Below are positions 13,508 through 45,635 of a stretch of DNA of 64,000 bases, in pieces. Location: the sequence record PV808484.1; one strand, written 5' to 3'. The stretch comes from a phage. Position 1 is the first letter of the stretch. Every line of letters starts with the position of its first letter. The notes under the pieces are model-generated. The model made no database searches. It saw only the letters and a program-made list of their open reading frames with translations, and had not been told where the DNA came from. A program made the translations under genes and the position numbers.

Positions 13508-14482
13508 TTAAAGACTTTCAATAACTTGACGACGCAGTTCATTGGCATCTGCAAGATTATAATTAAGACGAACGTGTTCTGCAAGCATCATACCACGATC
13601 TTCTGTGTATCTAGGGTTCCTCATTAGCTTGACAACTTCATAATGCCAAGATGCTTTAGAATCTGCATAGATAACAGCCTTTGCATCTACCGGATTGAAG
13701 TACGGCAGCACAGGAGAACAGATAATAGGAAGACCCTTTGCACCTGCTTCCAAAATCTTCAAATTGCTTTTACAGTTGTTGAAGTCATTATCTACCAGGG
13801 GAGCAATTGCAATGCTATGACCGTCATACACAGACATATACTCACCTAAATTTTTAATAGCTGGTTTATACTGTGCATTTGGAATTTTACGTTTTATTTT
13901 AACCCACTCCGCAGTAGTTAGATACTGACTGTTATTTCCAACAGGTGCAGAAGGATACACTTCATACCCTGCAATTGTCAATAGTGTATCATCAAATGTA
14001 TTAGCTACAAGAGATAAATCAGGCTCGTGGCTTGCTCCTCCAGCCCAGATAATAGGCGTGTCAGAATTACGGTCTTTTGTCAAAGTAAATTGACCTTCGT
14101 CGTAAGGTAGTGCGTTTCTAATAACGACAACATTACGATTTAAATGACGAATTTTGTAAGCTAGGTATTCTGTTGTTACTGTAACAACATCTGCTAACTT
14201 AACCATCTCTACAATAGTCTTTGAATGATTAGTAAATACGCCAGCCATATAATGTTCAGGATTAAGTGAATAAAAGTCATCTAAATCAACAATAATCTTA
14301 ACACCTTGTGCCTTCAGGCGTTTAACTTCGTCTGCTCCATGAGAATACACTCTATTAAAAACTAAAACGTCTTTCTTAGGTTTAAACGTATTTCCAGCAA
14401 ATGGCATTACAATACGATGGTAATCACAACCACTGCCTAACTTATTATCACACTTAAGTACAGGAGTATTAGGATTTACCAT
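13508..14482 (-). CDS. putative glycosyltransferase (GT-B), paralogue 2
   Basis: same motifs as paralogue 1; start moved to ATG 14482 (GAGGAGG upstream, N-terminus then aligns with paralogue 1). Confidence 0.55.
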   Translation of the reverse strand: MVNPNTPVLKCDNKLGSGCDYHRIVMPFAGNTFKPKKDVLVFNRVYSHGADEVKRLKAQGVKIIVDLDDFYSLNPEHYMAGVFTNHSKTIVEMVKLADVVTVTTEYLAYKIRHLNRNVVVIRNALPYDEGQFTLTKDRNSDTPIIWAGGASHEPDLSLVANTFDDTLLTIAGYEVYPSAPVGNNSQYLTTAEWVKIKRKIPNAQYKPAIKNLGEYMSVYDGHSIAIAPLVDNDFNNCKSNLKILEAGAKGLPIICSPVLPYFNPVDAKAVIYADSKASWHYEVVKLMRNPRYTEDRGMMLAEHVRLNYNLADANELRRQVIESL

Positions 14483-15155
14483 ATTTTTGAGCCTCCTCAT
14501 AAGAGATAAAAGTTTTACCATTGCGAAGATCCTCCAGTGATTGTTTATATTGTTCCCAGTTTACACCAATCCCCTGTTCTTTCTCTTCTTTTGATAGATT
14601 CGCAAAAGGTAAAGGATTGTCTCCAAACACATCGTCAGGATGGATAAACGCCATAATTCGAATAGGACATGGTACGCCTGGAATACCTCGGTTCAAACCT
14701 GCCAGCGGAACGCGCTGAATCCACTCTGCATCTTCATATCCATAACCGTGGGTGTATGAGCGGAAATAGCCAGCTTTCTCAATAACTGCACGGGAATACA
14801 TACCAAACTGGCACATCCCTAGTTCCCAAATAACCACTTCCCCTTCAATACCTTTTACTTTATCTTTAAAGTATTCAGGCATACCAAAGAAATCCCAACC
14901 ATTTTCCTTCGCCTGTTTTACAAAATATGTTTCCCAACCTTGAACAACAGGATAACAATCATCATCAAAAATAAACCAGTAGTCATACCCTTCGTCATAA
15001 AACTTTTTCATCAATTCATTACGAGCATATGCAACACCTTTTCGTTCCCGATCATACTGTACAACAAAAGTAGCATTAGGATCAGTCACAAGATAATCTT
15101 TAAGAGGACGCTTACCTACAGTAATAACACCAACACCAATTTTTGTATTTTCCAA
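14469..15155 (-). CDS. putative glycosyltransferase (GT-A, family 2-like)
   Basis: 228 aa; GVGVITVGKRP; DxD-type FIFDDDCYP. Confidence 0.55.
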   Translation of the reverse strand: MENTKIGVGVITVGKRPLKDYLVTDPNATFVVQYDRERKGVAYARNELMKKFYDEGYDYWFIFDDDCYPVVQGWETYFVKQAKENGWDFFGMPEYFKDKVKGIEGEVVIWELGMCQFGMYSRAVIEKAGYFRSYTHGYGYEDAEWIQRVPLAGLNRGIPGVPCPIRIMAFIHPDDVFGDNPLPFANLSKEEKEQGIGVNWEQYKQSLEDLRNGKTFISYEEAQKYGKS

Positions 15156-17748: not shown

Positions 17749-18345
17749 TTACTCGAACCAATCGTCGCCAGCGCCAAACGCTTTAACTACATCATAAATG
17801 TCAAGTCCAGCTTTACCTACACCATATGCTTTCAGTTTCCATTCGCTATCTTCCCGTACCAGGGAGGCAACGTGGCAAATGGTATTACCTGCAAGTTCTG
17901 GAGCCAAGAAGTCAAAATCCAGCAGTTCAACGTTACGTTCATCATCGAAGATTTTAAGGAAACCTTCGGTAGCGTGACCAAGGCGTTTCTTACCCGTTTC
18001 GTCATCAATAGTGATTACGAATGCAATTTCCTGTGCTTCAGCAGAGATATTATCCAGTGTAACATCAATCTGCTCCATTTGTCCTACACCGTCACGAACA
18101 TCTTCACCTGCAAAAGTAGAACGTTCAGGATCAAATTTCTGTGCGTAGCATACCAGGTGGCGAGGAGACAACAGTTCCGGCAGACCAGATGCATTGTGTC
18201 GGCAAATCAGAGCACTAACATCCAGATCCAGTTTTTCGTTAGATTTCCAAGAGAATTCCAGACGAATGCGTTTCAGTGCTGGTGCGATCTTTTTCAGAGA
18301 AACTTTTTCGCTAGAACCTTTTTTCAGGGAAATTTTCTGAGTCAT
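17749..18345 (-). CDS. TerD-domain protein
   Basis: 198 aa; N-terminal ISLKKG..VSLKK, LDLDVSALI, EWKLKAYGVG match TerD family landmarks. Confidence 0.75.
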   Translation of the reverse strand: MTQKISLKKGSSEKVSLKKIAPALKRIRLEFSWKSNEKLDLDVSALICRHNASGLPELLSPRHLVCYAQKFDPERSTFAGEDVRDGVGQMEQIDVTLDNISAEAQEIAFVITIDDETGKKRLGHATEGFLKIFDDERNVELLDFDFLAPELAGNTICHVASLVREDSEWKLKAYGVGKAGLDIYDVVKAFGAGDDWFE

Positions 18346-18417
18346 AATTTATTATCTCCTTTGTTGTTAATTTACGTTGTCTATTTTACTAATCTTTTCT
18401 ACAAAGTCAAGCGTTTT

Positions 18418-19212
18418 TTACGCTTTTGCTCCAAATTTTTTAACCCACTCGCCAAACTCTTCGGATAACAGTTTATCGTAGAGTTCTTCATCAGACAAGG
18501 ACAAATCTGCAATACCGATAAAATCAACATTATCGTATTCTTTTGCCAAGTCTTTCAGGAATTTAAAGTTTGCATTACCTACACCAACCATAAACCAGTA
18601 AACAGGCGTATTGCGGTGTTTGTTCAGTAAGCTACGTACTGCTGAAGTATCCATGTTCTCCCCGTCAGTTTGGAAGAAAATCATTGCAGGAGTACGATCA
18701 ACTTGTGCATCAGTATCTACAACCTGTTCTACAACAGTACGTGTAACTTCTACAAGTTCTTTTTTACCAGTTAGTTTAGCAAGGAAACCCTTAGCCGGAA
18801 CTTCTTCATACTCAACGACTTCGCGTGTAATATTTTTCATAGGTACACTACCGAAGTATGTATCATAGATCTCTTGCATTACTGGAGCATAGGCTGTACC
18901 ACCGTTGATGCAAACATTAGACATGCAAGAGCCGACATAATCATCATACACATCAGCCGTTGCAGGAGGCAGTTCAAAAGAAGAACTATTGAAAGCCCAC
19001 ATGTCAATCTGTGCATTGTCATCAAACTTCATACCAAACGGCAGCAGTTTACCTACAAAATCACTTACAGTGCCATCACGATACAGCTCACACATACTAC
19101 CCGAAATATCTAAGGCGCTACCGACACGAAGAACAACATCGTTAATCTTTTTCTTACGCAGAGATACAGTAAGAGTTTCTTGACGTTTTTTAAGACTGAT
19201 TTTATTGGACAT
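18418..19212 (-). CDS. vWA-domain protein (TerY-like)
   Basis: 264 aa; MIDAS-like DISGSM; TerD-like N-terminal strand (ISLKK...TVSL). Confidence 0.5.
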   Translation of the reverse strand: MSNKISLKKRQETLTVSLRKKKINDVVLRVGSALDISGSMCELYRDGTVSDFVGKLLPFGMKFDDNAQIDMWAFNSSSFELPPATADVYDDYVGSCMSNVCINGGTAYAPVMQEIYDTYFGSVPMKNITREVVEYEEVPAKGFLAKLTGKKELVEVTRTVVEQVVDTDAQVDRTPAMIFFQTDGENMDTSAVRSLLNKHRNTPVYWFMVGVGNANFKFLKDLAKEYDNVDFIGIADLSLSDEELYDKLLSEEFGEWVKKFGAKA

Positions 19213-19213
19213 A

Positions 19214-19483
19214 TTATTTCTCCTTTCTGACTGTAATGTTAGTAACTTCTAAATCCACTTCTACCACTTCTGTATCATATAAAATACAGTTAAGTTGACC
19301 TCTTTGTGAACCGTTCAGACACATTGCTTGGTTTGTATTAACCTTAATAAACACTAAGTTTCTGAACGTATCTAAACCAGCATCTTGATAGGCAACATAA
19401 TATACGAATGTATCACCTGTGTCAAGTTCTCCAAAACATTTAGGTTCATCTGATTTGTCGTCTTTGATATTAAATTTAAGCAC
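19214..19483 (-). CDS. hypothetical protein
   Basis: 89-aa ORF. Confidence 0.45.
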   Translation of the reverse strand: MLKFNIKDDKSDEPKCFGELDTGDTFVYYVAYQDAGLDTFRNLVFIKVNTNQAMCLNGSQRGQLNCILYDTEVVEVDLEVTNITVRKEK

Positions 19484-20039
19484 TGTCTTCTCCTTTACCT
19501 GCTCTCAAGCCTAAATAGAAAGCCTCTCTGGTGATCTTTTGCAACTCGTTTAAAGAGATAGTTACAACTAAATCATCTTCAATTTCTAGCTTTGAGTCTT
19601 CTTCTGTCTCAATGCAAGTATTATGCACTTTGTGGTAAGGATTGTCAACACGTTTAAATTTATTATTTTCAGTGCTGAAGAAGCAATCTGGATCTTCTTC
19701 TCCATCACCCCAGCCCTGGTTAGGGTCTTCTTCAGATCTTTCTGTTGGGATCTCACCTGTAAAATGCTCTTCTAATACCATAGCAATACCATCCCCAAGA
19801 TCGGAAGAGAACATCAAATTACAAACTTCTTCCCAAGGCATAGACCACTTGAATCTTTTACGATTGCCATGTTTATCTTCTTCGTTAGAGAAAACACTAC
19901 CATAGCTATCATAATTGCCATACATCTCTTCAATAACTTTACCACCTTTCAAAAGAAATAGGTAGCAAGGAGAGCCATCGAAAGAGGTAGAAAGAGCAGC
20001 ATTACCAGACTCTTTGCATAAGAAACTAAAGCACCCCAT
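19476..20039 (-). CDS. hypothetical acidic protein
   Basis: 187-aa ORF. Confidence 0.5.
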   Translation of the reverse strand: MGCFSFLCKESGNAALSTSFDGSPCYLFLLKGGKVIEEMYGNYDSYGSVFSNEEDKHGNRKRFKWSMPWEEVCNLMFSSDLGDGIAMVLEEHFTGEIPTERSEEDPNQGWGDGEEDPDCFFSTENNKFKRVDNPYHKVHNTCIETEEDSKLEIEDDLVVTISLNELQKITREAFYLGLRAGKGEDSA

Positions 20040-20239
20040 TATACACCAGCCTTAAGATCAATTAAAGCCAAAGTTGTTTCAGAGTGTGTTTGCTCGTCTA
20101 CAGGTGCAGTCATATGATAATACAAAAAGTCTTCGGCATCATACCAATCTGACTCTTGACCTTGTTTCCAACCATCAATGAAAGCATCTTCCATAATGGT
20201 TTGTAACTCTTCACGAGTTAAGTGAATATCTTTACTCAT
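20039..20239 (-). CDS. hypothetical protein
   Basis: 66-aa ORF. Confidence 0.4.
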   Translation of the reverse strand: MSKDIHLTREELQTIMEDAFIDGWKQGQESDWYDAEDFLYYHMTAPVDEQTHSETTLALIDLKAGV

Positions 20240-20472
20240 TACACATTCTCCTCTTTTACCAATTCCATCGTTGAACTATCAAAACCATCTTTAGAAGAAT
20301 AGGTATAGACAGAACGTAGTTCTCGCAGGACAGTGAATACATTAGGATCATCTAACCAAGCATCCTGGAGGAGAACATAACGATCTTCATTGTCGTACTG
20401 GACGGCAATCATAGAACCAGACAGTTTGTAAATTTTAATATTCATAATATATTTCTCCTTAAAGTAGACCAC
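20239..20472 (-). CDS. hypothetical protein
   Basis: 77-aa ORF. Confidence 0.4.
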   Translation of the reverse strand: MVYFKEKYIMNIKIYKLSGSMIAVQYDNEDRYVLLQDAWLDDPNVFTVLRELRSVYTYSSKDGFDSSTMELVKEENV

Positions 20473-21562
20473 GTTTAACAGTTTGAATCATACCATCTTC
20501 AAGAGATTGTACTTCTTGGATGTAATCAATACGAGCAGCACGGGCTTCAGTATTGATTCGGTTAGTTTCTTCTAACATTTTAACTAAGTTTTCTTGATCG
20601 CGACGTAATGTTTCAATATCCAATACTTGACGATTAGCAAGTTGTGTAGCTTCAATTTGGTTTTGTGCAGCCAGATCACTACCCATTGCAATAGCAGCAT
20701 TAAATTCGTTCAGTACATTGTTCTGTGTATCTGCTGCTTTCTTCTGGCGTAGACTTTCAATATACATAGAAAAGTTTGCAGAGTAAGCAGGGATAACATT
20801 ATTCACAATATTACGGGCTGATCGCATCAAACTTGCAGATACTTTCTGCATACTTTGTACACGTGGCCCCATCTGAACACAGAGTAAACGTAAGGCTTTC
20901 AGGTCTGCAATACGAATTTCAAGCAGATCCATAGTATCACGAGTACGTTGACGCTCTTCTACTTCATTTTCAGGTAGTGTATTAAGGCGAACTTCTTCTT
21001 TTTCATAAGTAGCTGTTAGAAGCTCTATATCCCTGTTTAAGCTAAGAGCATATTTGGCAATAGCCTCTTCTAAACGTTGCAGATATCGTAAAGAATCTTC
21101 TTCTTTTTTCAAGTCTGTTTGGAGTGTCTTTACCAAACCTTCAATACGATTATTGATGGTGTCAAATTCTCCAAACAAATCTTCTTTCATACCTAATACT
21201 TTCTTAACTAACTTACCTAAACCTTTAGATTGTTTAATAGAATTAGGATCAAGTTGCTTTGCTTGCTTAATAAGTGCAGTTAAACGTTCACTCATTTCAT
21301 CTCCCTGAGATGAACGCTGGTGTTTAAGCACTTCAGCATTAAGGTTACGAAGAGTAAGTCCTGCATCAGCACCAACTTGTTCAATCTCTTCACGAGACAT
21401 TGGAGGCAGCATTTGTACAGGTCGTGCAACAGCAGGGGCATATACAGGGCTTGCATCCATAGCACTTGGAGCAAACAAAGACTTACTTTTTTCTGTTGTT
21501 GCCGTGAATACACTCATTTCAGACGGTTTGCTTTTTACGGCACTGATAAAAGGACTGGACAT
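20459..21562 (-). CDS. coiled-coil protein, TelA-like (toxic anion resistance family) by context
   Basis: 367 aa, largely alpha-helical/coiled-coil; size and ter-gene neighbourhood suggest TelA; no diagnostic motif confirmed. Confidence 0.4.
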   Translation of the reverse strand: MSSPFISAVKSKPSEMSVFTATTEKSKSLFAPSAMDASPVYAPAVARPVQMLPPMSREEIEQVGADAGLTLRNLNAEVLKHQRSSQGDEMSERLTALIKQAKQLDPNSIKQSKGLGKLVKKVLGMKEDLFGEFDTINNRIEGLVKTLQTDLKKEEDSLRYLQRLEEAIAKYALSLNRDIELLTATYEKEEVRLNTLPENEVEERQRTRDTMDLLEIRIADLKALRLLCVQMGPRVQSMQKVSASLMRSARNIVNNVIPAYSANFSMYIESLRQKKAADTQNNVLNEFNAAIAMGSDLAAQNQIEATQLANRQVLDIETLRRDQENLVKMLEETNRINTEARAARIDYIQEVQSLEDGMIQTVKRGLL

Positions 21563-21630
21563 TCAATTTCCTCCATATTCTTTAGTAGATGGTGATACCT
21601 CTGTACCACCATCATAACACAAATTAAGTA

Positions 21631-22482
21631 TTAAACAAACATATCTAAATAATTTGTAGTAATAAATGCTCCATCTGCTTCCAGATTAACATAACCAGTA
21701 GCATTAGTGGTTAAGAAATCCAGATCGAAAGACTCTTTAACACCCCGTACCTCAACACGAGAGATATCGAATACAGGTAGTGTAACAGCCTCTTCGTGCA
21801 ATACCGTACCTTTGTAGGTTGCCTTAATGATAAACTTGATATTACCCGTTCCAGCATCATACAAAACACTTTCAAACCCTTTGAGAGTATACTTATCACC
21901 AGAAGTGAAGTGCAAAGTTGCTTTGTTTACAGTACGTTTCTTACGAGGAGTTCCTTTCACACGTTTATGATCACTACGTTTTTTGTACTTATGGAATAAT
22001 ACAAACGATACACTATCAAGAAAGGTATCAACATCAAGGATTTTAATATCCTCTGTTGCAGCAAATTTTGAAGTCGTTGCATCAAAATGCTTTTCCCTGC
22101 GATCATACATAAAGATATCAAAACGATCTTCTAAATCAAACAAATTATGTATCTTAATTTCAGAATGCTTGCACATTGCAGCAACCTTAAACTCTTCAAA
22201 ACGTGGGTGTTCTACCAGTTCTTCAAGTTTTACACCAAAGACAGTATATGGCTTCGAAGTTTTTTCTGGCGTTGGCATTACAGAAGCATAATCACCGATT
22301 GCGCTTTTAAAGCAAAATTGTTCTTGACCTGTATTTTTACCAACGAATTTACAATATTCGTCATCGTGCATACTTTCTTTGGTAGTACCAACAAACTCAA
22401 AACCATCTTTATTCTTCTCAAGAATTTCTTGATTAAAGATCCAACCTTCCAGGCGATACACTTTACCAACTTCTAGTTTCAT
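21631..22482 (-). CDS. hypothetical protein
   Basis: 283-aa ORF. Confidence 0.5.
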   Translation of the reverse strand: MKLEVGKVYRLEGWIFNQEILEKNKDGFEFVGTTKESMHDDEYCKFVGKNTGQEQFCFKSAIGDYASVMPTPEKTSKPYTVFGVKLEELVEHPRFEEFKVAAMCKHSEIKIHNLFDLEDRFDIFMYDRREKHFDATTSKFAATEDIKILDVDTFLDSVSFVLFHKYKKRSDHKRVKGTPRKKRTVNKATLHFTSGDKYTLKGFESVLYDAGTGNIKFIIKATYKGTVLHEEAVTLPVFDISRVEVRGVKESFDLDFLTTNATGYVNLEADGAFITTNYLDMFV

Positions 22483-22517
22483 CTGTTTCTCCTTCTTATT
22501 TAATCTGTATTAAATTA

Positions 22518-23108
22518 TTAACGACGACGTGAGCTACTAAAACTACGTTTCGACGAAGAATAACTTTTCGAAGACTTACTATAAGAGCTAATAGGACTTG
22601 AGTAAGACTTACGAGCAGAGTAATCACTATTCACTTTTGTTGTTGATGGGCGTGAATACGTTTGTACACTTTGCTGCTTAATTGTGTTTTGTTTAGTGGT
22701 TGTATATGTATTTACAGGTTTATCATAAAAACTACGCTTTTGTGTTGTATACGATTTACTGTTAGTTGTAGGAGCAGCATTGTTATTAATAATGGTTGTA
22801 TTGCTACCACCATCTCTATAACCACCACCGCCACTGTTACCACTTAACATATGACCAAGAAGCATACCTGTAGCAAACTCACCTACACCAGAAGAACCAC
22901 TGCCGCCTCCTTGCACAACAACTGTTGAAGGTTGTGCAGGTGCTGCTTGAACAACTTGAGGTGCAGGCTGATTTACATATTGTTCATCTACCATCTGATT
23001 TGGTGTTTGTTGGTAACGTTGATTTTGTACATTTTCAGAATCATCACAACCTACCAGCAATGCACTACCTAATACAACTGCAACAATAAAAGATTTAATG
23101 TTTTTCAT
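22518..23108 (-). CDS. lipoprotein with Gly/Ser/Tyr-rich low-complexity tail
   Basis: start moved to ATG 23108 (MKNIKSF..); lipobox LLVGC; GAGAGGG upstream. Confidence 0.55.
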   Translation of the reverse strand: MKNIKSFIVAVVLGSALLVGCDDSENVQNQRYQQTPNQMVDEQYVNQPAPQVVQAAPAQPSTVVVQGGGSGSSGVGEFATGMLLGHMLSGNSGGGGYRDGGSNTTIINNNAAPTTNSKSYTTQKRSFYDKPVNTYTTTKQNTIKQQSVQTYSRPSTTKVNSDYSARKSYSSPISSYSKSSKSYSSSKRSFSSSRRR

Positions 23109-23340
23109 TTGTAACCCTCTCATTTAAAGTCTCAACACAATTTTTAAAATCCCTAGAGAAACAATACATCTGTTCTCCGTTCCTGTTGATAGTAATTGTA
23201 TGGTTATCAATATATGTTGTCAAGATAAAAATCAAACAAAACAACCCTAAAGCAAAACAAATATTTTCAAACAGAATCCAAAGAACACGTAAAACTACCA
23301 TCAGATCACCTCAACAAAGCCCCCGAAGGGGCTTAATGAA

Positions 23341-24318
23341 TTAAGCAACAGTCTGGTCTTCTTTTTCAGGGAAGATTAAACTTGCAATAACACCCAGCCC
23401 CAGAGTACCTAACACAATATACATACTGATCGTCGGATCAATGTGTGCTGGCAGGAAACTCACTTTTGCGTGCAGAGTTTCTGCAAACGGGTGATACATC
23501 AGTTTTACACCCACAAATACCAGGACTACGATAACTGCTTTCTCCAGATGAACCAAATATTTCAGTGCAACACTAAGGACAAAGAACAGAGCACGTAGAC
23601 CTAAAATTGCACACAGCATTGAAGAAAATACAAGCAGAGGTTCTTGTGTCACTGCAATTACTGCTGGAACAGAGTCTACTGCAAAGATTACGTCAACCAT
23701 TTCCATTACAAACACACAAACCAGAGCCGGAGTTGCTACACGAACACCATTTTTGATTGTGAAGAACTTCTCACCATCCATCTGATCAGATACAGGGAAC
23801 AGCTTACGAACAATGCGAGTAGCCCAGTGTTTAGAGTAATCAACTTCTGCGTCATTATCTCCAGCGAATACCATTTTAGCTGCACAGAAAAGGATGACCG
23901 CACCGAAGAAGATATTAACATACCAGCCCAAACTCAACAAGTAAGTGCCTACTGCTACAAACACACCTCGGAAGACAATCGCACCTGCAATACCCCAAAG
24001 TAGAATCTTGTGTTGCAAGTGTGTGCTTTTAATACCAAAACTTGCGAATACTGCCACAAATACTACTAAGTTATCTACAGAAAGAGATTTCTCCAACACA
24101 TACCCACTCAAGAACAAGCTCGCAAAATCAGCACCGTGTTGGAAGTATACAAAACCATAGTAGGCTAATGATACCCCAATCCAGAAAATTGACCAGCCAA
24201 TTGCAGATTTAAATGAAATTTCTTTGTTTTCTCTGTGTCCAAAGAAATCAATACAAATTGACAAGACTAAAATACCCACTAAAACAACCACATCAATAAT
24301 TGGGAAACCCAGTTGCAT
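23341..24318 (-). CDS. TerC-family integral membrane protein
   Basis: 325 aa, multi-pass hydrophobic; LSVDNLVVF and AVDSVPAV motifs typical of TerC/Alx. Confidence 0.7.
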   Translation of the reverse strand: MQLGFPIIDVVVLVGILVLSICIDFFGHRENKEISFKSAIGWSIFWIGVSLAYYGFVYFQHGADFASLFLSGYVLEKSLSVDNLVVFVAVFASFGIKSTHLQHKILLWGIAGAIVFRGVFVAVGTYLLSLGWYVNIFFGAVILFCAAKMVFAGDNDAEVDYSKHWATRIVRKLFPVSDQMDGEKFFTIKNGVRVATPALVCVFVMEMVDVIFAVDSVPAVIAVTQEPLLVFSSMLCAILGLRALFFVLSVALKYLVHLEKAVIVVLVFVGVKLMYHPFAETLHAKVSFLPAHIDPTISMYIVLGTLGLGVIASLIFPEKEDQTVA

Positions 24319-24336
24319 TCTCTTCTCCTCTTTAAT

Positions 24337-24355
24337 GCGGAGGACAATCCTCCGC
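24337..24355. other. GC hairpin immediately upstream of TerC RBS
   Basis: GCGGAGGA-CAA-TCCTCCGC. Confidence 0.35.
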
Positions 24356-24395
24356 TCTATGTCTTATACTATAAACTGTTTTTAAAGAAAGTCAA

Positions 24396-24644
24396 CTAGT
24401 TCAGTTCTGTAATTTTAAGTTTATCTTCTTTGTTAATGATAGGGAAAGCTACAGCATCACCTACATCATCAATAAAGCAAATAGCAAGACCACCTTCCAC
24501 TTTGCTAACCTGACCGTTAAAAGCATGATACGGGGCAGGAACTTCATCCCCATCTTCAATGAGAATAGCCTCGTAAACCTTGCCGATAGTACAATCACGG
24601 GTGTTTATAAATTTTTCAAGCACTTCAACATTTACTTTACGCAT
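24396..24644 (-). CDS. hypothetical protein
   Basis: 82-aa ORF. Confidence 0.45.
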   Translation of the reverse strand: MRKVNVEVLEKFINTRDCTIGKVYEAILIEDGDEVPAPYHAFNGQVSKVEGGLAICFIDDVGDAVAFPIINKEDKLKITELN

Positions 24645-24658
24645 ATAAAGATCCTCTC

Positions 24659-24865
24659 TTATTTGTTAGATTGAAAGATACCACGGAGTACCGCAAGAAT
24701 GAACGTCACACAGACTACACTCCAAAACGTTACAGGAACATGATGCCAGTCTAAGCCGATAATGTCAATCATATAGTTGTATGCTAAAAGCAGTAGCCAA
24801 CTAGGGATTAACACAATCAAGAACACAACAATAAAACAACCTAATACTGCTAAAACACCTGCCAT
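24659..24865 (-). CDS. small membrane protein
   Basis: 68 aa, two hydrophobic segments. Confidence 0.45.
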   Translation of the reverse strand: MAGVLAVLGCFIVVFLIVLIPSWLLLLAYNYMIDIIGLDWHHVPVTFWSVVCVTFILAVLRGIFQSNK

Positions 24866-24874
24866 ACTTTCTCC

Positions 24875-25591
24875 TTATTTCAGTTTGTAAACAATTACAT
24901 TTAAACCTTTGTTTACTAGAGTTTCTTCGATCATAAGTTTTACAATATTCCAAGAACCTCCAGCCAAACCACAACCAAGCATTGGTAAACCTACAATTTT
25001 ACCGCCTGAAGATACAACATCGTCTCCCATACTATCTAGCGCATTGTAGATAGCTTCATAATTCAGGTCACGCTTACCTTCCTCACGACGACTATAACCA
25101 TATTGTCCATATAAATTATAAATTGTCAAATTGTTTTCTGTATATTTGGTAAACGTACCTAATTTTTTATAATCACCACGTTTAGTGGCACAATCTGCTT
25201 TAAACGCACCAGGCCACTTGCTTTTAATTTTTGGTGCAATACCACTACCCATAGTGCAAAAACAGTTACAGCAGTGTGCTATAGCGTCTATATCGCCTCT
25301 CTCGGCTGCTGCTAAAAGATCACCGTATACCTCAATGATACCTGCCGGATAACTTGTTACAATTTCATCTTCCCAATACATTTTCTCTACACCACCGATC
25401 AGTGCAAAGTTTTGTGTAATGCGATCATCAATATAGTTAAGACCTGAAACATACACAGCGTATTCATCCTGTGCTGTAATACCTTGCACACGAATTCTTA
25501 AGACACCATCTTTATCTGTTGCTACACGCCCAAAATCTTTTTCTGTAATATTGGTGATAGGATCTCCGAAAGTCATTACTTTATTAGACAT
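24875..25591 (-). CDS. macro-domain protein, TARG1/OARD1-like (DarG-type ADP-ribose hydrolase fold)
   Basis: start moved to ATG 25591; AHCCNCFCTMGSGIA and GLPMLGCGLAGGSW match TARG1 landmarks HC..MGxGIA and GCGL. Confidence 0.7.
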   Translation of the reverse strand: MSNKVMTFGDPITNITEKDFGRVATDKDGVLRIRVQGITAQDEYAVYVSGLNYIDDRITQNFALIGGVEKMYWEDEIVTSYPAGIIEVYGDLLAAAERGDIDAIAHCCNCFCTMGSGIAPKIKSKWPGAFKADCATKRGDYKKLGTFTKYTENNLTIYNLYGQYGYSRREEGKRDLNYEAIYNALDSMGDDVVSSGGKIVGLPMLGCGLAGGSWNIVKLMIEETLVNKGLNVIVYKLK

Positions 25592-26441
25592 AATAATCCC
25601 CTTTAACATTAGATTTGTTGATAATGTTGCTTTCAAAAAATTGACGTAGGAAATCAAAGTTCTCTTTGTATTTTTCAATGTTATTGTAACCTTCTGCAAG
25701 GCAACCAAAGAACAGTTGTTCTACATAATACAAAGGAAGTTGTGAAAGTGCAATTTTAAAATCAACTTCGCTTTGACTCATTAGATACTTAATAGGACGA
25801 ACCAAACATTTAGCATCAGTTTCTTGCTTAATCATTTTAATAAAAGCTGCCAGGTTATTGATATAGTTGAAGTTAAGTGCAGCTTCGGTATTGGCTTCTG
25901 TACCTTCATACTTTGCAAAGTACAGGAAAAACGTATCGTTTTCAACACCTTCTTTGTCTAAAATTTCAATAAGTTTTTCTTCGTGTGTTCCTGTAATATT
26001 AACATCATCAATGAAAACCAGAGTTTTATTACCCCAGAAATCACGATTGATAGAGAAAGTGTCACCATCGATCAAAGCCTTACGATCTTCTTTACTAAGA
26101 AATCCATAATCATTGATATAGCTCACTTTACGATGAACGATATCCCACTCCACTGCTTTACCTCCTTTGATAGAGATTAGGTAGTTGAGGTGATCTACAA
26201 AATGTTCAGATAACACTGTAGCTGCATTTTTCACATAGTTATATGGAGATGGAATAACAACAAAACTTTCATTTACCAGTCGTTCTTCATACTTGGAAAA
26301 GAAACTTTCAGCCAGAATGCGCCCCATTCTTTTTGCTGCCTGGTTACTACCAAACTTTAACTTGGAATAATCTGCAATGTTAAATTTTGCTTCCTTCAGG
26401 TTAGTAAAAGTATTAGCAAAATGTTGAATTTGATTACGCAT
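25584..26441 (-). CDS. type-I phosphoribosyltransferase-domain protein
   Basis: 285 aa; PRPP-binding-type motif LVFIDDVNITGTHEE. Confidence 0.55.
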   Translation of the reverse strand: MRNQIQHFANTFTNLKEAKFNIADYSKLKFGSNQAAKRMGRILAESFFSKYEERLVNESFVVIPSPYNYVKNAATVLSEHFVDHLNYLISIKGGKAVEWDIVHRKVSYINDYGFLSKEDRKALIDGDTFSINRDFWGNKTLVFIDDVNITGTHEEKLIEILDKEGVENDTFFLYFAKYEGTEANTEAALNFNYINNLAAFIKMIKQETDAKCLVRPIKYLMSQSEVDFKIALSQLPLYYVEQLFFGCLAEGYNNIEKYKENFDFLRQFFESNIINKSNVKGDYYV

Positions 26442-27090
26442 TAATAAGTTCCTCTTTTTTAAGTTTAGCCAACAAGTCTTCTGGATTAATAATATGACAG
26501 AACTTCATCCCTATGTCAACAGCTTTTCCATCATAGATCAAACTATCTCCAACGTGTAAAATCTCCTCTGGTGCGAGATCAAATGTTACCATTTCATCAA
26601 AAGAGAGTTTAAAAAACCTAGGATCTGGTTTACACAAGCAAAACTCATCAGAAAAATGCATAAAGTCGAATGGTAATTTTGTCAAGCTAGAATATACAGC
26701 TAAGAAACTACCAGGTACAAAATTGGTATTGCTTTTAATACTCAAAGAATAGGTTGAACTTAGCTCTTCCAACTTCTTGCAAAGTTCAGGGTTTAATATT
26801 GGAGGATGTTTTATAAACATTGCTAAACAGTCTCTTTTTAACCCATCTACTTTATCAAGATCAATGTTCAAATGAGCAGAAAGTGTTTCCCAAGCATTTC
26901 TAGATGTTCCACAAATGCCTTTTTCTGCTTTTAAATCCAGGAGAGTTTTTACCTCTTTATATACGGTAGCTGCTTCTACCTCAGAACAAGAGGCATACTC
27001 GGCAATAACCTTGTTGCGTTCTTCTGCATACAAAGGATTAGCAGTAATAAGAGTATTCCATACATCAAAAGAAATATGCTTAACAGTCAT
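26434..27090 (-). CDS. HAD-superfamily hydrolase (phosphatase)
   Basis: start moved to ATG 27090 (GGAGG upstream); FDVWNTL motif-I-like, HVGDSLIYDG motif-IV-like. Confidence 0.6.
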   Translation of the reverse strand: MTVKHISFDVWNTLITANPLYAEERNKVIAEYASCSEVEAATVYKEVKTLLDLKAEKGICGTSRNAWETLSAHLNIDLDKVDGLKRDCLAMFIKHPPILNPELCKKLEELSSTYSLSIKSNTNFVPGSFLAVYSSLTKLPFDFMHFSDEFCLCKPDPRFFKLSFDEMVTFDLAPEEILHVGDSLIYDGKAVDIGMKFCHIINPEDLLAKLKKEELINA

Positions 27091-27092
27091 TT

Positions 27093-27248
27093 TTAATCCT
27101 CCGTCCAAAAGAATATCATCTGCTTAATTTTATTGATCTCTTGATGTAGTAACTTTCCAGCATGTGATTGATCTTTAATATTGACAGCAAGAATTTCAAG
27201 CTCCGTTAGTTTTTCTTGGATAGCTTTATATTCATCATCTGTAAGCAT
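27093..27248 (-). CDS. small hypothetical protein (51 aa)
   Basis: not in ORF track; ATG 27248 with AAGGGGAAG upstream; stop abuts HAD gene start. Confidence 0.35.
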   Translation of the reverse strand: MLTDDEYKAIQEKLTELEILAVNIKDQSHAGKLLHQEINKIKQMIFFWTED

Positions 27249-33280: not shown

Positions 33281-35017
33281 TTAGTTTACCAGTTTATTTA
33301 TGTCTGGTAAAAGATTTATTTCACCTAAGAAATCACCTTCACCTTCCTCTAGCCAACTCTCATATGCTTGTGCATGATTATAGTTACCATCAAAAGAATC
33401 TGCAACAAATTTTTCTACAGTTTTTCGAGATGTGCCAGCGCCAAATACACCAAGTTTAATACCATTGATCGGTAAAGTGGTGCTTGTGGGTACTTTCTCT
33501 GTTGCAACACGGTTGATATCTATAATCTCCTGTACGGTTGTATTCCATTGTAAGCATTTAACACAACGGGTGTGCGCTACATACAGTAGGTTTCGCTCTG
33601 CCTCTTCCAGTCCTACCCATTCACCAGTCTTTTTATCATAATTGGAAGGAAAATCATTAGCAACAATAACCTGATCCCACTCCAAACCTTTAGATTTGTG
33701 TGCTGTAGTCAATGTGACTTTTGCTGTAGGAGAATTTCTATGCGTTCTAAGTGTATGTGCTATAGTGTTTGCCTTACCAGAAACTACAATGTTTAACAAA
33801 CGTTTAGCATCTGGATCAGCCTCTGCACACTCAACAAATTCATCCCAGTCTGCATAAGGTAATACAGTTTCATGTTTTACTTTCTCAATATCTCCTCTCC
33901 GAAGAGCATTAACACTATCTACCATAGAGATAAAATCCCTGGTATCTACGTTAATAATAATTTCTTCCCCGTCTGCAATACGATCCATTGCCTCCATAAG
34001 CAAGGTTAAATTCTTGCGAAAGATGATAGTGTAAGGCTTTGTATAGTCTACAACATCTGATTTGTAGCTACCTACTACAGTATCAAAGCCTTTACCAACC
34101 AAAGGATGACGCAAAGGTTCTTTATCACTTAAAATCATATTCGCAATGTTTGCCACTTTGGGGCCAAAACGGAAGCAAGCAGTTAATGGAAGTTCTGCCC
34201 CATATGTAGAAGTTTCCTTCATCATATTTTGGCTTCCACGGAACTGGTAGATGCTCTGATATTCGTCTCCCACCACTACTACTTGTTTTGCAGATTTAGC
34301 ATTCCGCAGAATAGACAAGAATGCAGGGTTAACATCCTGGAATTCATCCCCAAAAATAATGTCATAACCAAGATCAGCACCTGATAATTCAAACAATTTT
34401 ACATAGGTGTCATGCGTCATCAAAGTATCTGTGTTAGGATCAATGCGCTCTCGCCACAATTGTTTTGCATACTTAACTACTTCTGTAATTAGTTTGTGTT
34501 CGTTAATACCTTTTCTTTTAATATCTGCAAGATGTACACCAGGAAAATGTTTACGGCTGATAAAAGGATCATCCGAAAATTCAAACTTACCTACGGTTTG
34601 CTTGATCATTAAACCAATCATAGCACGAGTTAAAAGTGTTTTCCCTCGTTTATCAATAAGATTATTAATCTTAAATTTCTTTGCTATCTCGCTACCTGTA
34701 CCTGCAACGTTAACATACTGTCCTTCTGGTCGTGACAGTTTTGCACGTAAACGATGATCCAGGAATTGATAGCAAATGGAATGCAATGTACGGCATTCTA
34801 CATTTGGTGGCATCTTACGCCGTGCTTCTTCTGCCATGCTTTTATTGAAAGCTAAGTAAAGAATGCGATCTTCTGTACTGTTAGCCAGCAAATAAAGTGT
34901 TGACGTTTTGCCTGATCCAGATTTAGCCTGGATAGTTAAAAAGCGATGATCTGGAAAAGCCTCCTTAATAGCTGTTTGCTCTTCTGTTGGAGTAAAACTC
35001 AACTCTTTCTTAGCCAT
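33281..35017 (-). CDS. UvrD/Rep-type superfamily-1 DNA helicase
   Basis: Walker A AKSGSGKT; C-terminal TAHKSKGLEWDQVIV; start moved to ATG 35017 (AGAGAGG upstream). Confidence 0.7.
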   Translation of the reverse strand: MAKKELSFTPTEEQTAIKEAFPDHRFLTIQAKSGSGKTSTLYLLANSTEDRILYLAFNKSMAEEARRKMPPNVECRTLHSICYQFLDHRLRAKLSRPEGQYVNVAGTGSEIAKKFKINNLIDKRGKTLLTRAMIGLMIKQTVGKFEFSDDPFISRKHFPGVHLADIKRKGINEHKLITEVVKYAKQLWRERIDPNTDTLMTHDTYVKLFELSGADLGYDIIFGDEFQDVNPAFLSILRNAKSAKQVVVVGDEYQSIYQFRGSQNMMKETSTYGAELPLTACFRFGPKVANIANMILSDKEPLRHPLVGKGFDTVVGSYKSDVVDYTKPYTIIFRKNLTLLMEAMDRIADGEEIIINVDTRDFISMVDSVNALRRGDIEKVKHETVLPYADWDEFVECAEADPDAKRLLNIVVSGKANTIAHTLRTHRNSPTAKVTLTTAHKSKGLEWDQVIVANDFPSNYDKKTGEWVGLEEAERNLLYVAHTRCVKCLQWNTTVQEIIDINRVATEKVPTSTTLPINGIKLGVFGAGTSRKTVEKFVADSFDGNYNHAQAYESWLEEGEGDFLGEINLLPDINKLVN

Positions 35018-45083: not shown

Positions 45084-45635
45084 ATGCGGATTACTGATAA
45101 GTATGTGTTCTTCTTCTCGGCAAAAGATGAATTTAGCAACTGGTATCTATCATCTTTTATTGAACCTTTAGCTCCCAAGTATAATAATTCTATCACAAGT
45201 TCTGTCGAATTTACTTGTGTGGAACAATATATGATGTGGAGAAAAGCATGTTTATTTTATGATTACAACATTGCATCTTCTATTTTAACCGGAGATCTAA
45301 GATATACAGGAGAAAAAGAACAAGCATATTATAAGCGACTAGGTAGATTAGTTAAAGATTATGATGAAGATACCTGGACTTCTTTACGGGAGAAGATTGT
45401 CAAACGTGGTTTGTATCTTAAATACACACAAAATGAAGATCTCAAAAATAAACTTATAGCTTACGCAGATAAGGAGTTCGTAGAGGCAAGCCCTTATGAT
45501 TCTATTTATGGTATCAAAATGGGGATGTGGGATCGTGATGTTGAAAATAAGGATTGTTGGAAAGGACAAAATCTTTTAGGAAAATGGCATACAGACCTTG
45601 CTGTTTATCTAAAAGCACAATCTGATATTTCCTGA
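45084..45635 (+). CDS. NADAR (YbiA/DUF1768) domain protein
   Basis: 183 aa; VFFFSAKDEFSNWY, VEQYMMWRKA, YDSIYGIKMG match NADAR landmarks. Confidence 0.7.
   Translation: MRITDKYVFFFSAKDEFSNWYLSSFIEPLAPKYNNSITSSVEFTCVEQYMMWRKACLFYDYNIASSILTGDLRYTGEKEQAYYKRLGRLVKDYDEDTWTSLREKIVKRGLYLKYTQNEDLKNKLIAYADKEFVEASPYDSIYGIKMGMWDRDVENKDCWKGQNLLGKWHTDLAVYLKAQSDIS

What the first reader, a model, noticed from the sequence alone, without database searches (positions are those of the whole stretch)
24875..25591. TARG1/DarG-type macro domain: candidate reversal of DNA or protein ADP-ribosylation
The C-terminal ~140 aa carry AHCCNCFCTMGSGIA and GLPMLGCGLAGGSW, which match the landmark motifs of TARG1/OARD1-type macro domains; this is the fold used by the DarG antitoxin to remove ADP-ribose from DNA. 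A phage-encoded copy is a plausible counter-measure to DarT-type or other ADP-ribosylating host defences. The ~100-aa N-terminal extension has no recognisable motif. The gene sits next to a PRTase and a HAD phosphatase, which could process the released ADP-ribose.
Basis: partly seen in the sequence, partly recalled or inferred. Interest (0 to 1): 0.75.

Follow-up and report, generated by a model that had tools for sequence, protein, structure and literature searches.

The report
Phage macrodomain, likely anti-DarT2 eraser
This phi92-like coliphage gene encodes an ADP-ribose-removing macrodomain related to T4's AdfM, which protects T4 from the bacterial DarTG2 DNA-ADP-ribosylating defence, so it is a new member of a recently described counter-defence family, here fused to a small borrowed N-terminal domain.

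Summary
Window 24875-25591 (minus strand) encodes a 238-aa protein. Residues 83-238 are a confidently modelled macrodomain of the TARG1/DarG/SCO6735 (ALC1-like) class.

It lacks the TARG1 Lys/Asp dyad and the DarG Lys. It has Gln163/Ala210 instead, as do Streptomyces SCO6735 (a proven thymidine-ADP-ribose DNA hydrolase) and T4 Tk.4. A 2025 preprint shows Tk.4 (renamed AdfM) is needed for T4 growth on DarTG2 hosts. Our protein aligns with Tk.4 at 30% identity (E 9e-18) and shares its PHROG.

The same window also carries the ortholog of the NADAR enzyme AdfN-Bas60, a validated anti-DarT1 factor. The genome therefore probably holds both DNA-ADP-ribose erasers.

The neighbouring PRTase and HAD genes are not ADP-ribose processors. 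They are the conserved PRTase_3-HAD pair of a phage-borne Ter cluster, and this pair occurs without a macro gene in other phages and in bacteria.

The N-terminal 82 residues form a small acidic SH3-like beta-barrel. In Citrobacter phage Tr1 this module belongs to a MazG-like gene lying between the PRTase and macro genes. In phi92-like phages it has been fused onto the macrodomain.

Verdict: new member of a known kind, with modest interest.

The parts
24875..25591 (-). Complete gene, 238 codons plus stop: N-module fused to a macrodomain (ortholog of bas60_0070 / phi92 gp185)
   Evidence: ORF and translation; 99-100% identical in phi92-like phages; annotated 'putative macrodomain protein' or 'phosphatase'
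24878..25345 (-). Macrodomain, residues 83-238, ALC1-like (TARG1/DarG/SCO6735) class, Gln-type active site
   Evidence: Pfam Macro; PDB phmmer; AF2 pLDDT above 90; Foldseek to TARG1, BT1257, SCO6735 and DarG; alignment with T4 AdfM and references
25103..25105 (-). Codon of Gln163, at the position of TARG1 Lys84, DarG Lys80 and SCO6735 Gln85; invariant in 73 homologs
   Evidence: sequence read (ttg on the + strand = CAA)
25346..25591 (-). N-terminal module, residues 1-82: acidic (pI 4.4) small SH3-like beta-barrel with motifs DxGRxA...G..R and LIGG..KMYWEDE
25597..25603 (-). Shine-Dalgarno-like AAGGGGA, 5 nt upstream of the ATG at 25591, lying inside the last codons of the PRTase gene
25584..26441 (-). 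Upstream neighbour: PRTase_3 (ComF-like phosphoribosyltransferase). Its stop overlaps the macro start by 8 nt. Part of the Ter cluster, not of the macro function
   Evidence: Pfam PF15610 E 2.9e-41; distribution
26434..27090 (-). HAD-family hydrolase, overlapping the PRTase start by 8 nt; obligate partner of PRTase_3
   Evidence: HAD immediately upstream of the PRTase in 22 of 24 genome loci
45084..45635 (+). Companion eraser elsewhere in the window: NADAR protein, 98.9% identical to bas60_0111. This is inferred to be the AdfN-Bas60 of the paper, which names no locus tag
   Evidence: PMC11825919

Best explanation
The gene encodes an orphan, phage-borne ADP-ribosylglycohydrolase of the AdfM (T4 Tk.4) type. 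During infection of a host carrying a DarTG2-type system, DarT2 ADP-ribosylates thymidines in single-stranded phage DNA and blocks replication. The macrodomain (residues 83-238) binds the ADP-ribose and cleaves the thymidine-ribose bond, restoring the DNA. Catalysis would follow the SCO6735-type mechanism: no Lys/Asp dyad, Gln163 positioning the substrate, and a water activated near the H106-C107 backbone. Together with the NADAR enzyme encoded 20 kb away (guanine-specific, anti-DarT1), the phage would cover both known DarT chemistries, as T4 does with AdfN plus AdfM. The N-terminal 82-aa acidic beta-barrel is a module captured from the adjacent MazG-like gene. It probably acts as a protein-protein adaptor or oligomerisation domain and is not needed for chemistry. 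Shown here: the fold, the class, the active-site state, homology to proven enzymes, the genomic context and the origin of the fusion. Inferred: the substrate (T-ADPr DNA), the in vivo role, and the role of the N-module.
For: Macro fold of the ALC1-like class. Homology to T4 Tk.4/AdfM at 30% identity, E 9e-18, same phrog_335. tk.4 was the only significant hit on a DarTG2 host, and a clean knockout sensitises T4. SCO6735, the best PDB sequence hit at 3e-15, removes ADPr from thymidine in DNA and rescues cells from DarT, with Gln85 essential. Gln163, H106, N109, G206, G208 and the long 'mobile loop' are conserved with SCO6735/BT1257, and Q163 is invariant in 73 homologs. So proven T-ADPr erasers bracket this protein on both sides. 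The PADLOC and NCBIfam DarG models hit only the macro part. There is no adjacent darT, so it is an orphan. The same window carries a NADAR gene (PF08719, E 2.5e-36) 98.9% identical to bas60_0111; Bas60-62 are reported to encode a NADAR, AdfN-Bas60, that neutralises DarT1. The family is widespread in large lytic phages, at 2,909 records, as expected for a general counter-defence gene.
Against: No experiment has been done on this protein or on any phi92-like ortholog; neither AdfM paper mentions them. Identity to the validated enzymes is only about 30%. The two SCO6735 lysines that position DNA (K34, K89) are Ser here, although T4 AdfM lacks them too. For T4 AdfM the enzymology is itself inferred, and only genetics is published. 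The gene is tightly coupled to the PRTase_3 gene (8-nt overlap), an adjacency kept in four Stephanstirmvirinae-type lineages, which could mean a shared pathway. SCO6735 also acts on protein-ADPr, so the DNA substrate is not the only possibility.
Confidence: 0.62

Rival explanations
1. The macrodomain is a working part of the phage Ter cluster. It would bind or hydrolyse a ribose-phosphate-containing small molecule made by the co-translated PRTase_3 and HAD enzymes (the proposed Ter 'nucleoside-like signal'), rather than acting on DarT-modified DNA.
For: The gene lies between TerC and PRTase_3-HAD within a cluster holding TerD, vWA-TerF, TelA and TerC. 8-nt overlaps link HAD/PRTase and PRTase/macro. 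The PRTase-macro adjacency is conserved in Phapecoctavirus, Tr1 and metagenomic contig L004. In Tr1 a MazG-like nucleotide pyrophosphatase sits in the same slot.
Against: The HAD-PRTase_3 pair occurs without any macro gene within 7-8 kb in Xanthomonas XaC1, Rhizobium RHph_TM21B and Caulobacter CcrColossus phages. The same is true of 23 of 24 loci from the bacterial genome collection, several with TerD/TelA/TerC; the one exception is a phage-like contig. The macro family is in 2,909 phage records against 157 for PRTase_3. T4 Tk.4 has no Ter context.
Confidence: 0.1
2. It reverses ADP-ribosylation of proteins or RNA rather than DNA. The targets could be modifications made by other host ART-based defences (for example mRNA-ADP-ribosylating systems) or by phage or host ARTs during takeover.
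For: SCO6735 and TARG1 also hydrolyse Glu/Asp-linked protein ADP-ribose. The macro pocket recognises ADP-ribose whatever the acceptor. The fold matches to viral nsP3 macrodomains are significant but weaker.
Against: The only in vivo phenotype known for this phage family (T4) is DarTG2-specific, with a single significant hit. No ART gene was noticed in the annotated 35-84 kb stretch of Bas60 that covers most of the window, although this was not searched systematically.
Confidence: 0.15
3. It is an ADP-ribose-1''-phosphate phosphatase (Poa1p/Appr-1-p type) or a degrader of soluble ADPR-derived immune signals such as Thoeris-type molecules. The legacy 'phosphatase' annotation implies the former.
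For: PHROG and GenBank label it 'phosphatase'. There are weak hits to yeast Poa1p (E 0.02-0.1 for ours, 3e-6 for T4 Tk.4). H106 aligns with Poa1p H23 and T112 with S30 (my reading). Close homologs on jumbo-phage contigs sit near NAMPT, Nudix and SIR2 genes.
Against: The 'phosphatase' label is a historic transfer from the A1pp motif, not a test. Similarity to Poa1p is much weaker than to SCO6735/BT1257. No phenotype links this family to Thoeris.
Confidence: 0.08

Closest known systems
T4 Tk.4 = AdfM (anti-DarT factor Macrodomain; bioRxiv 10.1101/2025.11.20.689424)
   Same: Phage-encoded orphan macrodomain. 30% identity, E 9e-18, same phrog_335. Gln at the TARG1-K84 position, HxCNC and GxG motifs. 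No adjacent darT.
   Different: T4 AdfM is a bare 155-aa domain with a shorter loop after the Gln (a 6-residue deletion). Ours keeps the long SCO6735-type loop, carries an 82-aa N-terminal beta-barrel, and is coupled to a PRTase_3-HAD/Ter cluster.
Streptomyces coelicolor SCO6735 and Bacteroides BT1257 (PDB 5E3B, 2FG1)
   Same: Best PDB sequence hits (3e-15, 4e-15). Same Gln-type active site (Q85 = Q163), and H24, N27, G126, G128 and the long mobile loop are conserved.
   Different: These are cellular, stand-alone proteins. The DNA-positioning K34 and K89 are Ser116 and Ser167 here. SCO6735 is strongly basic (pI 9.7), against 8.2 for our macro domain and 5.4 for the whole protein.
Chimallivirus AdfM (PhiKZ gp104; Cell Rep 2026, PMC13309987) and bacterial DarG2
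   Same: Macrodomain that removes DarT2-made ADP-ribose from DNA; a phage-encoded orphan in PhiKZ.
   Different: These are Lys-type (PhiKZ N23/K78, TaqDarG N22/K80). PhiKZ gp104 is only 24% identical to ours, E 1e-3. DarG2 additionally has a C-terminal DarT-binding domain and a cognate darT, both absent here. The NCBIfam DarG model scores 48.9 bits against a cutoff of 250 and matches only positions 4-147 of 338.
Human TARG1/OARD1
   Same: Best structural match (Foldseek E 1.5e-12, target TM 0.87-0.90); same class.
   Different: The catalytic dyad K84/D125 is replaced by Q163/A210.
AdfN-Bas60 (NADAR, PMC11825919)
   Same: The same logic of an orphan antitoxin-like eraser, and a gene 98.9% identical to bas60_0111 is encoded in the same window at 45084-45632.
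   Different: Unrelated fold, specific for guanine-ADPr (DarT1), and does not counter DarTG2.

Membership tests
Macro domain superfamily, ALC1-like (TARG1/DarG/SCO6735) class | Macro fold closest to TARG1, DarG and SCO6735 | tested here: met
   Pfam 31.3 bits above the cutoff of 22; phmmer against PDB; AF2 plus Foldseek, TM 0.81-0.90 to TARG1, BT1257 and DarG
TARG1/OARD1 | Catalytic Lys84/Asp125 dyad | tested here: not met
   Q163 and A210 occupy the aligned positions
DarG2 antitoxin | Catalytic Lys (TaqDarG K80) in the macro domain | tested here: not met
   Gln163 at that position
DarG2 antitoxin | C-terminal DarT-binding domain, full-length match to the equivalog model | tested here: not met
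   NCBIfam NF048014 scores 48.9 bits against a cutoff of 250, covering model positions 4-147 of 338 only; PADLOC DarG positions 6-144 of 329
DarG2 antitoxin | Adjacent cognate darT toxin gene | tested here: not met
   The neighbours are PRTase_3, HAD, two small ORFs and TerC. A PADLOC scan of four genes (macro, PRTase, HAD, AAA ATPase) gave no DarT hit
SCO6735/BT1257 subclass | Gln at the Lys position, plus H24/N27/G126/G128 equivalents and the long mobile loop | tested here: met
   Q163, H106, N109, G206 and G208; loop length equals that of SCO6735/BT1257; Q163 invariant in 73 homologs
SCO6735/BT1257 subclass | DNA-positioning lysines K34 and K89 | tested here: not met
   S116 and S167; also absent in T4 AdfM, so probably not required in the phage branch
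AdfM (T4 Tk.4 type) | Phage-encoded orphan macrodomain homologous to Tk.4 | tested here: met
   BLASTP E 9e-18; same phrog_335 at E 6.6e-65; tblastn hit to T4 tk.4
AdfM (T4 Tk.4 type) | Confers resistance to DarTG2 / removes thymidine-linked ADP-ribose from ssDNA | not testable with these tools
   Needs plaque assays and a gel-shift assay; no published data for phi92-like phages
Ter system biosynthetic module (PRTase + HAD) | Co-occurrence of the macro gene with PRTase_3-HAD wherever that module is found | tested here: not met
   Macro absent near PRTase_3-HAD in 3 distant phages and in 23 of 24 genome loci

The most novel reading that the evidence does not exclude
The captured acidic SH3-like N-module may be a portable adaptor that delivers different nucleotide-processing enzymes (MazG-like in Tr1, macro in phi92-like phages) to a common partner. 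That partner could be a component of the co-encoded Ter/PRTase-HAD system, or DarT itself, which it might inhibit by ssDNA mimicry as the DarG C-terminal domain does. The fusion protein would then be a two-pronged inhibitor (binding plus erasing), or it would link ADP-ribose erasure to Ter signalling. Either would be a new architecture for phage counter-defence.
Probability: 0.12. Interest if true: 0.6.

Novelty: new member of a known kind. Interest (0 to 1): 0.3.

Why it matters
If confirmed, phi92-like coliphages, which are used in the BASEL collection and in therapy-oriented work, would carry a complete two-enzyme kit against DarT toxins: NADAR for guanine and macro for thymidine. It would also extend the Gln-type AdfM branch beyond T-even phages. 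About 2,900 phage genomes carry homologs still labelled 'phosphatase', so the annotation could be corrected at scale. The domain-capture event (N-module moved from MazG to macro) is a clean example of how anti-defence or auxiliary genes are remodelled by local deletion. The work also shows that the PRTase and HAD neighbours belong to a phage Ter cluster, which removes a misleading guilt-by-association inference.

Tried and rejected
1. NARP3 (Sci Adv 2026) as an explanation for the PRTase+HAD+macro cluster. It is a PnuC/NadR pair and is unrelated.

2. Extra copies of the N-module or the macro domain in the window. None were found.

3. Word-indexed search with the N-module. It returned only truncated or frameshifted copies of the same gene. 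The exhaustive phmmer search gave three true relatives plus repetitive false hits.

4. Pfam on the N-module and its relatives. Nothing significant.

6. Similarity between the P0124 C-terminus and the 283-aa ORF at 21631-22482. Only a 31-aa motif, not pursued.

7. The Anantharaman 2012 Ter paper (PMC4104200) is not held. I relied on its summary in PMC7824862.

8. The 2026 Migulavirinae/Thoeris preprint. The macrodomain it mentions is the host ThsA, not a phage enzyme.

9. Promoter scan. Counts were not above the shuffled expectation, so it is uninformative.

10. ICP1 AdfB. It acts by binding DarT and is not a relevant homolog.

Full report
**1. What is at the coordinates**

Window 24875-25591 holds a single uninterrupted minus-strand ORF of 238 codons. 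The ATG at 25591 is preceded by AAGGGGA with a 5-nt spacer. The ATG at 25609, which several GenBank records use as the start, has no such signal. The distant homolog P0002 also starts at the equivalent of 25591. The window is a phi92-like coliphage (Justusliebigvirus, Stephanstirmvirinae). It is 99.2% identical over 6 kb to phages PATM and PaulScherrer (Bas60), where the gene is annotated 'putative macrodomain protein' or 'phosphatase'.

**2. The macrodomain**

- Pfam Macro matches residues 106-217 (E 2.1e-7, above the gathering score).
- phmmer against PDB ranks SCO6735 (5E3B, 3e-15) and BT1257 (2FG1/2AFC, 4e-15) first, then human TARG1 (3e-10) and T. aquaticus DarG (9e-4).
- An AlphaFold2 model built on 73 homologs has pLDDT above 90 from residue 83 to the C-terminus.
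- Foldseek places that model on TARG1 (E 1.5e-12, target TM 0.87-0.90), BT1257, SCO6735 and DarG, ahead of alphavirus nsP3 and yeast Poa1p.
- The DarG models of NCBIfam and PADLOC hit only their macro part and fall far below the equivalog cutoff (48.9 against 250 bits).

The class assignment (ALC1-like) is therefore solid. Membership of DarG proper is excluded, because there is no C-terminal DarT-binding domain and no adjacent darT.

**3. Active site**

They are not.

- In the alignments, TARG1 K84 aligns with Gln163 and TARG1 D125 with Ala210.
- This is exactly the state of SCO6735 and BT1257. The SCO6735 paper (PMC9411070) shows that SCO6735 lacks the TARG1 dyad and the DarG lysine.
- That paper also shows that Gln85 at the lysine position is essential, and that the enzyme efficiently removes ADP-ribose from thymidine in DarT-modified DNA and protects cells from DarT.
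- H106, N109, G206 and G208 match SCO6735 H24, N27, G126 and G128. The long 'mobile loop' after the Gln is retained.
- Q163 is invariant across 73 homologs.
- The two SCO6735 lysines that position DNA (K34, K89) are Ser here, but they are also absent from T4 Tk.4.

**4. Link to a validated phage counter-defence**

A tblastn search finds homologs in 2,909 phage records, including T4 tk.4. Direct BLASTP of our protein against Tk.4 gives 30% identity and E 9e-18. Both proteins fall in phrog_335, and Tk.4 also has Gln at the key position.

The HIDEN-SEQ preprint (10.1101/2025.11.20.689424) reports three things:
- tk.4 was the single significant conditionally essential T4 gene on a DarTG2 host.
- A clean knockout sensitises T4 to DarTG2.
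- The authors therefore named the gene adfM.

A second, Lys-type AdfM was characterised biochemically in chimalliviruses (PMC13309987). PhiKZ gp104 is only marginally similar to our protein (24% identity, E 1e-3).

Our protein is thus bracketed by a biochemically proven T-ADPr DNA hydrolase (SCO6735) and a genetically proven anti-DarTG2 factor (T4 AdfM). Neither AdfM paper mentions phi92-like phages. The assignment for this gene is therefore by homology only.

**5. A companion eraser in the same window**

Johannesman et al. (PMC11825919) showed that Bas60-62 encode a NADAR protein, AdfN-Bas60. It neutralises DarT1 and rescues phages on DarTG1 but not on DarTG2. The paper gives no locus tag. 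The annotated stretch of Bas60 that I read contains one NADAR-type gene, bas60_0111 ('YbiA-like N-glycosidase'). The window encodes a protein 98.9% identical to it at 45084-45632 (+), with Pfam NADAR at E 2.5e-36. I take this to be the AdfN-Bas60 ortholog. The genome therefore most likely carries one eraser for each DarT chemistry, as T4 does.

**6. The PRTase and HAD neighbours**

The macro gene is the last of three genes with 8-nt overlaps (HAD, PRTase_3, macro), downstream of a terminator-like hairpin at 27491-27470. The wider neighbourhood is a phage Ter cluster:

| Gene | Window coordinates |
|---|---|
| TerD | 17749-18345 |
| vWA-TerF-like | 18418-19212 |
| TelA | 20459-21562 |
| TerC | 23341-24318 |

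Iyer et al. (PMC7824862) describe PRTase plus HAD as the 'signal biosynthesis' arm of Ter systems, including phage-borne ones.

I tested whether the macro gene belongs to that module.
- PRTase_3 occurs in only 157 phage records, against 2,909 for the macro family.
- In Xanthomonas XaC1, Rhizobium RHph_TM21B and Caulobacter CcrColossus phages, the HAD-PRTase pair has no macro gene within 7 kb.
- A scan of the bacterial genome collection returned 24 loci. HAD lies immediately upstream of the PRTase in 22 of them, and several Bacteroidota loci also have TerD, TelA or TerC.
- A macro gene appears in only one of the 24, a phage-like contig whose PRTase is 65% identical to ours.

The PRTase and HAD enzymes are therefore Ter components, not processors of released ADP-ribose. 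The macro gene is a lineage-specific neighbour. The adjacency is nevertheless conserved in Phapecoctavirus, Tr1 and contig L004, so a functional link in this lineage cannot be fully excluded. I give it about 0.1.

**7. The N-terminal extension**

An exhaustive phmmer search over 1.8 billion representative proteins finds only three true relatives:
- a stand-alone 71-aa protein (P0126);
- a 264-aa protein (P0124);
- P0123 (202 aa), whose C-terminus is a MazG-like pyrophosphatase.

Among cultured phages the module is limited to 54 phi92-like records plus Citrobacter phage Tr1. In Tr1, also a member of Stephanstirmvirinae, the locus reads HAD, PRTase (77.5% identical), [N-module + MazG-like, split there by a frameshift], macro (163 aa, 54% identical, no extension), an orf68 homolog, and further on TerC. 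Phapecoctavirus has HAD, PRTase and a bare macro.

The simplest history is that loss of the MazG part fused the N-module in frame to residue ~2 of the macro domain. The junction reads ...MYWEDEIVTSYPAG-IIEVYGDLL. The fusion is kept in a 53%-identical metagenomic lineage (P0002), which suggests it is tolerated or useful. Its function is unknown.

**8. Verdict**

- The central interpretation is supported by homology to experimentally characterised enzymes.
- The active site is Gln-type rather than Lys/Asp.
- The PRTase/HAD inference is rejected.
- The extension is explained as a captured module.

This is a new member of the recently defined AdfM kind, with a variant architecture. It is of modest interest, mainly for re-annotating a large phage family and for the domain-capture example.

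Noticed in passing
window 17749-27108 (minus strand): A near-complete phage-borne Ter cluster: TerD (17749-18345), vWA-TerF-like (18418-19212), TelA (20459-21562), TerC (23341-24318), PRTase_3 (25584-26441) and HAD (26434-27090). Most of these genes are annotated 'hypothetical' in Bas60. The function of Ter systems in lytic phages is unknown; superinfection exclusion has been proposed.
   Followed up: partly
window 45084-45635 (+): NADAR-domain gene 98.9% identical to bas60_0111 ('YbiA-like N-glycosidase'). It is inferred to be the ortholog of the experimentally validated anti-DarT1 enzyme AdfN-Bas60.
   Followed up: yes
window ~8272 and ~34228-34261, compared with L014 7553-8286 and 34227-35298: Compared with PaulScherrer, the window lacks about 0.73 kb and about 1.07 kb. 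These coincide with the annotated inteins of the DNA polymerase and the UvrD/Rep helicase, so this phage appears to have intein-free alleles.
   Followed up: no
L016 (Citrobacter phage Tr1) 3983-4590: The N-module + MazG-like gene is split into 142-aa and 60-aa ORFs by an apparent frameshift. The intact 202-aa form exists in metagenomes (P0123).
   Followed up: partly
GenBank MG065689, MG065639, MG065645: Records named 'Campylobacter phage A110a/A145/A150' (host C. jejuni) are 97-99% identical to phi92-like coliphages in this region. The host assignment or the sample purity looks doubtful.
   Followed up: no
L005 5001-5911 (368-kb contig), L007-L010: Close macro homologs (about 48% identity) lie on jumbo-phage-like contigs of 300-390 kb next to NAMPT, Nudix and SIR2 genes. 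L005 has two different macro genes in tandem.
   Followed up: no
window 22518-23123 (minus strand): A 201-aa Ser/Gly/Thr-rich ORF with an N-terminal lipoprotein-like signal (…ALLVGC) lies between TelA and TerC. It has no Pfam hit and matches only phage families of unknown function (phrog_21570).
   Followed up: no
window 14469-15155 (minus strand) and neighbours to ~12.5 kb: A weak TET-associated glycosyltransferase (TAGT) hit (E 4e-5, below the cutoff) sits in a run of genes annotated as glycosyltransferases or disaccharide synthases next to the primase/helicase. This may be a DNA or surface sugar-modification module.
   Followed up: no
window 25607-25609: Several GenBank records (for example bas60_0070) start this gene at an upstream ATG that lacks a Shine-Dalgarno sequence and adds 6 residues. 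The ATG at 25591 is the better-supported start.
   Followed up: yes
L012 (Rhizobium phage RHph_TM21B) 4308-6425; L011 (XaC1): In distant phages the HAD-PRTase_3 pair sits beside NMN adenylyltransferase/Nudix or RNA-repair genes, with no Ter genes annotated in the stretch shown. The pair may therefore have a Ter-independent nucleotide-metabolic role in some phages.
   Followed up: no
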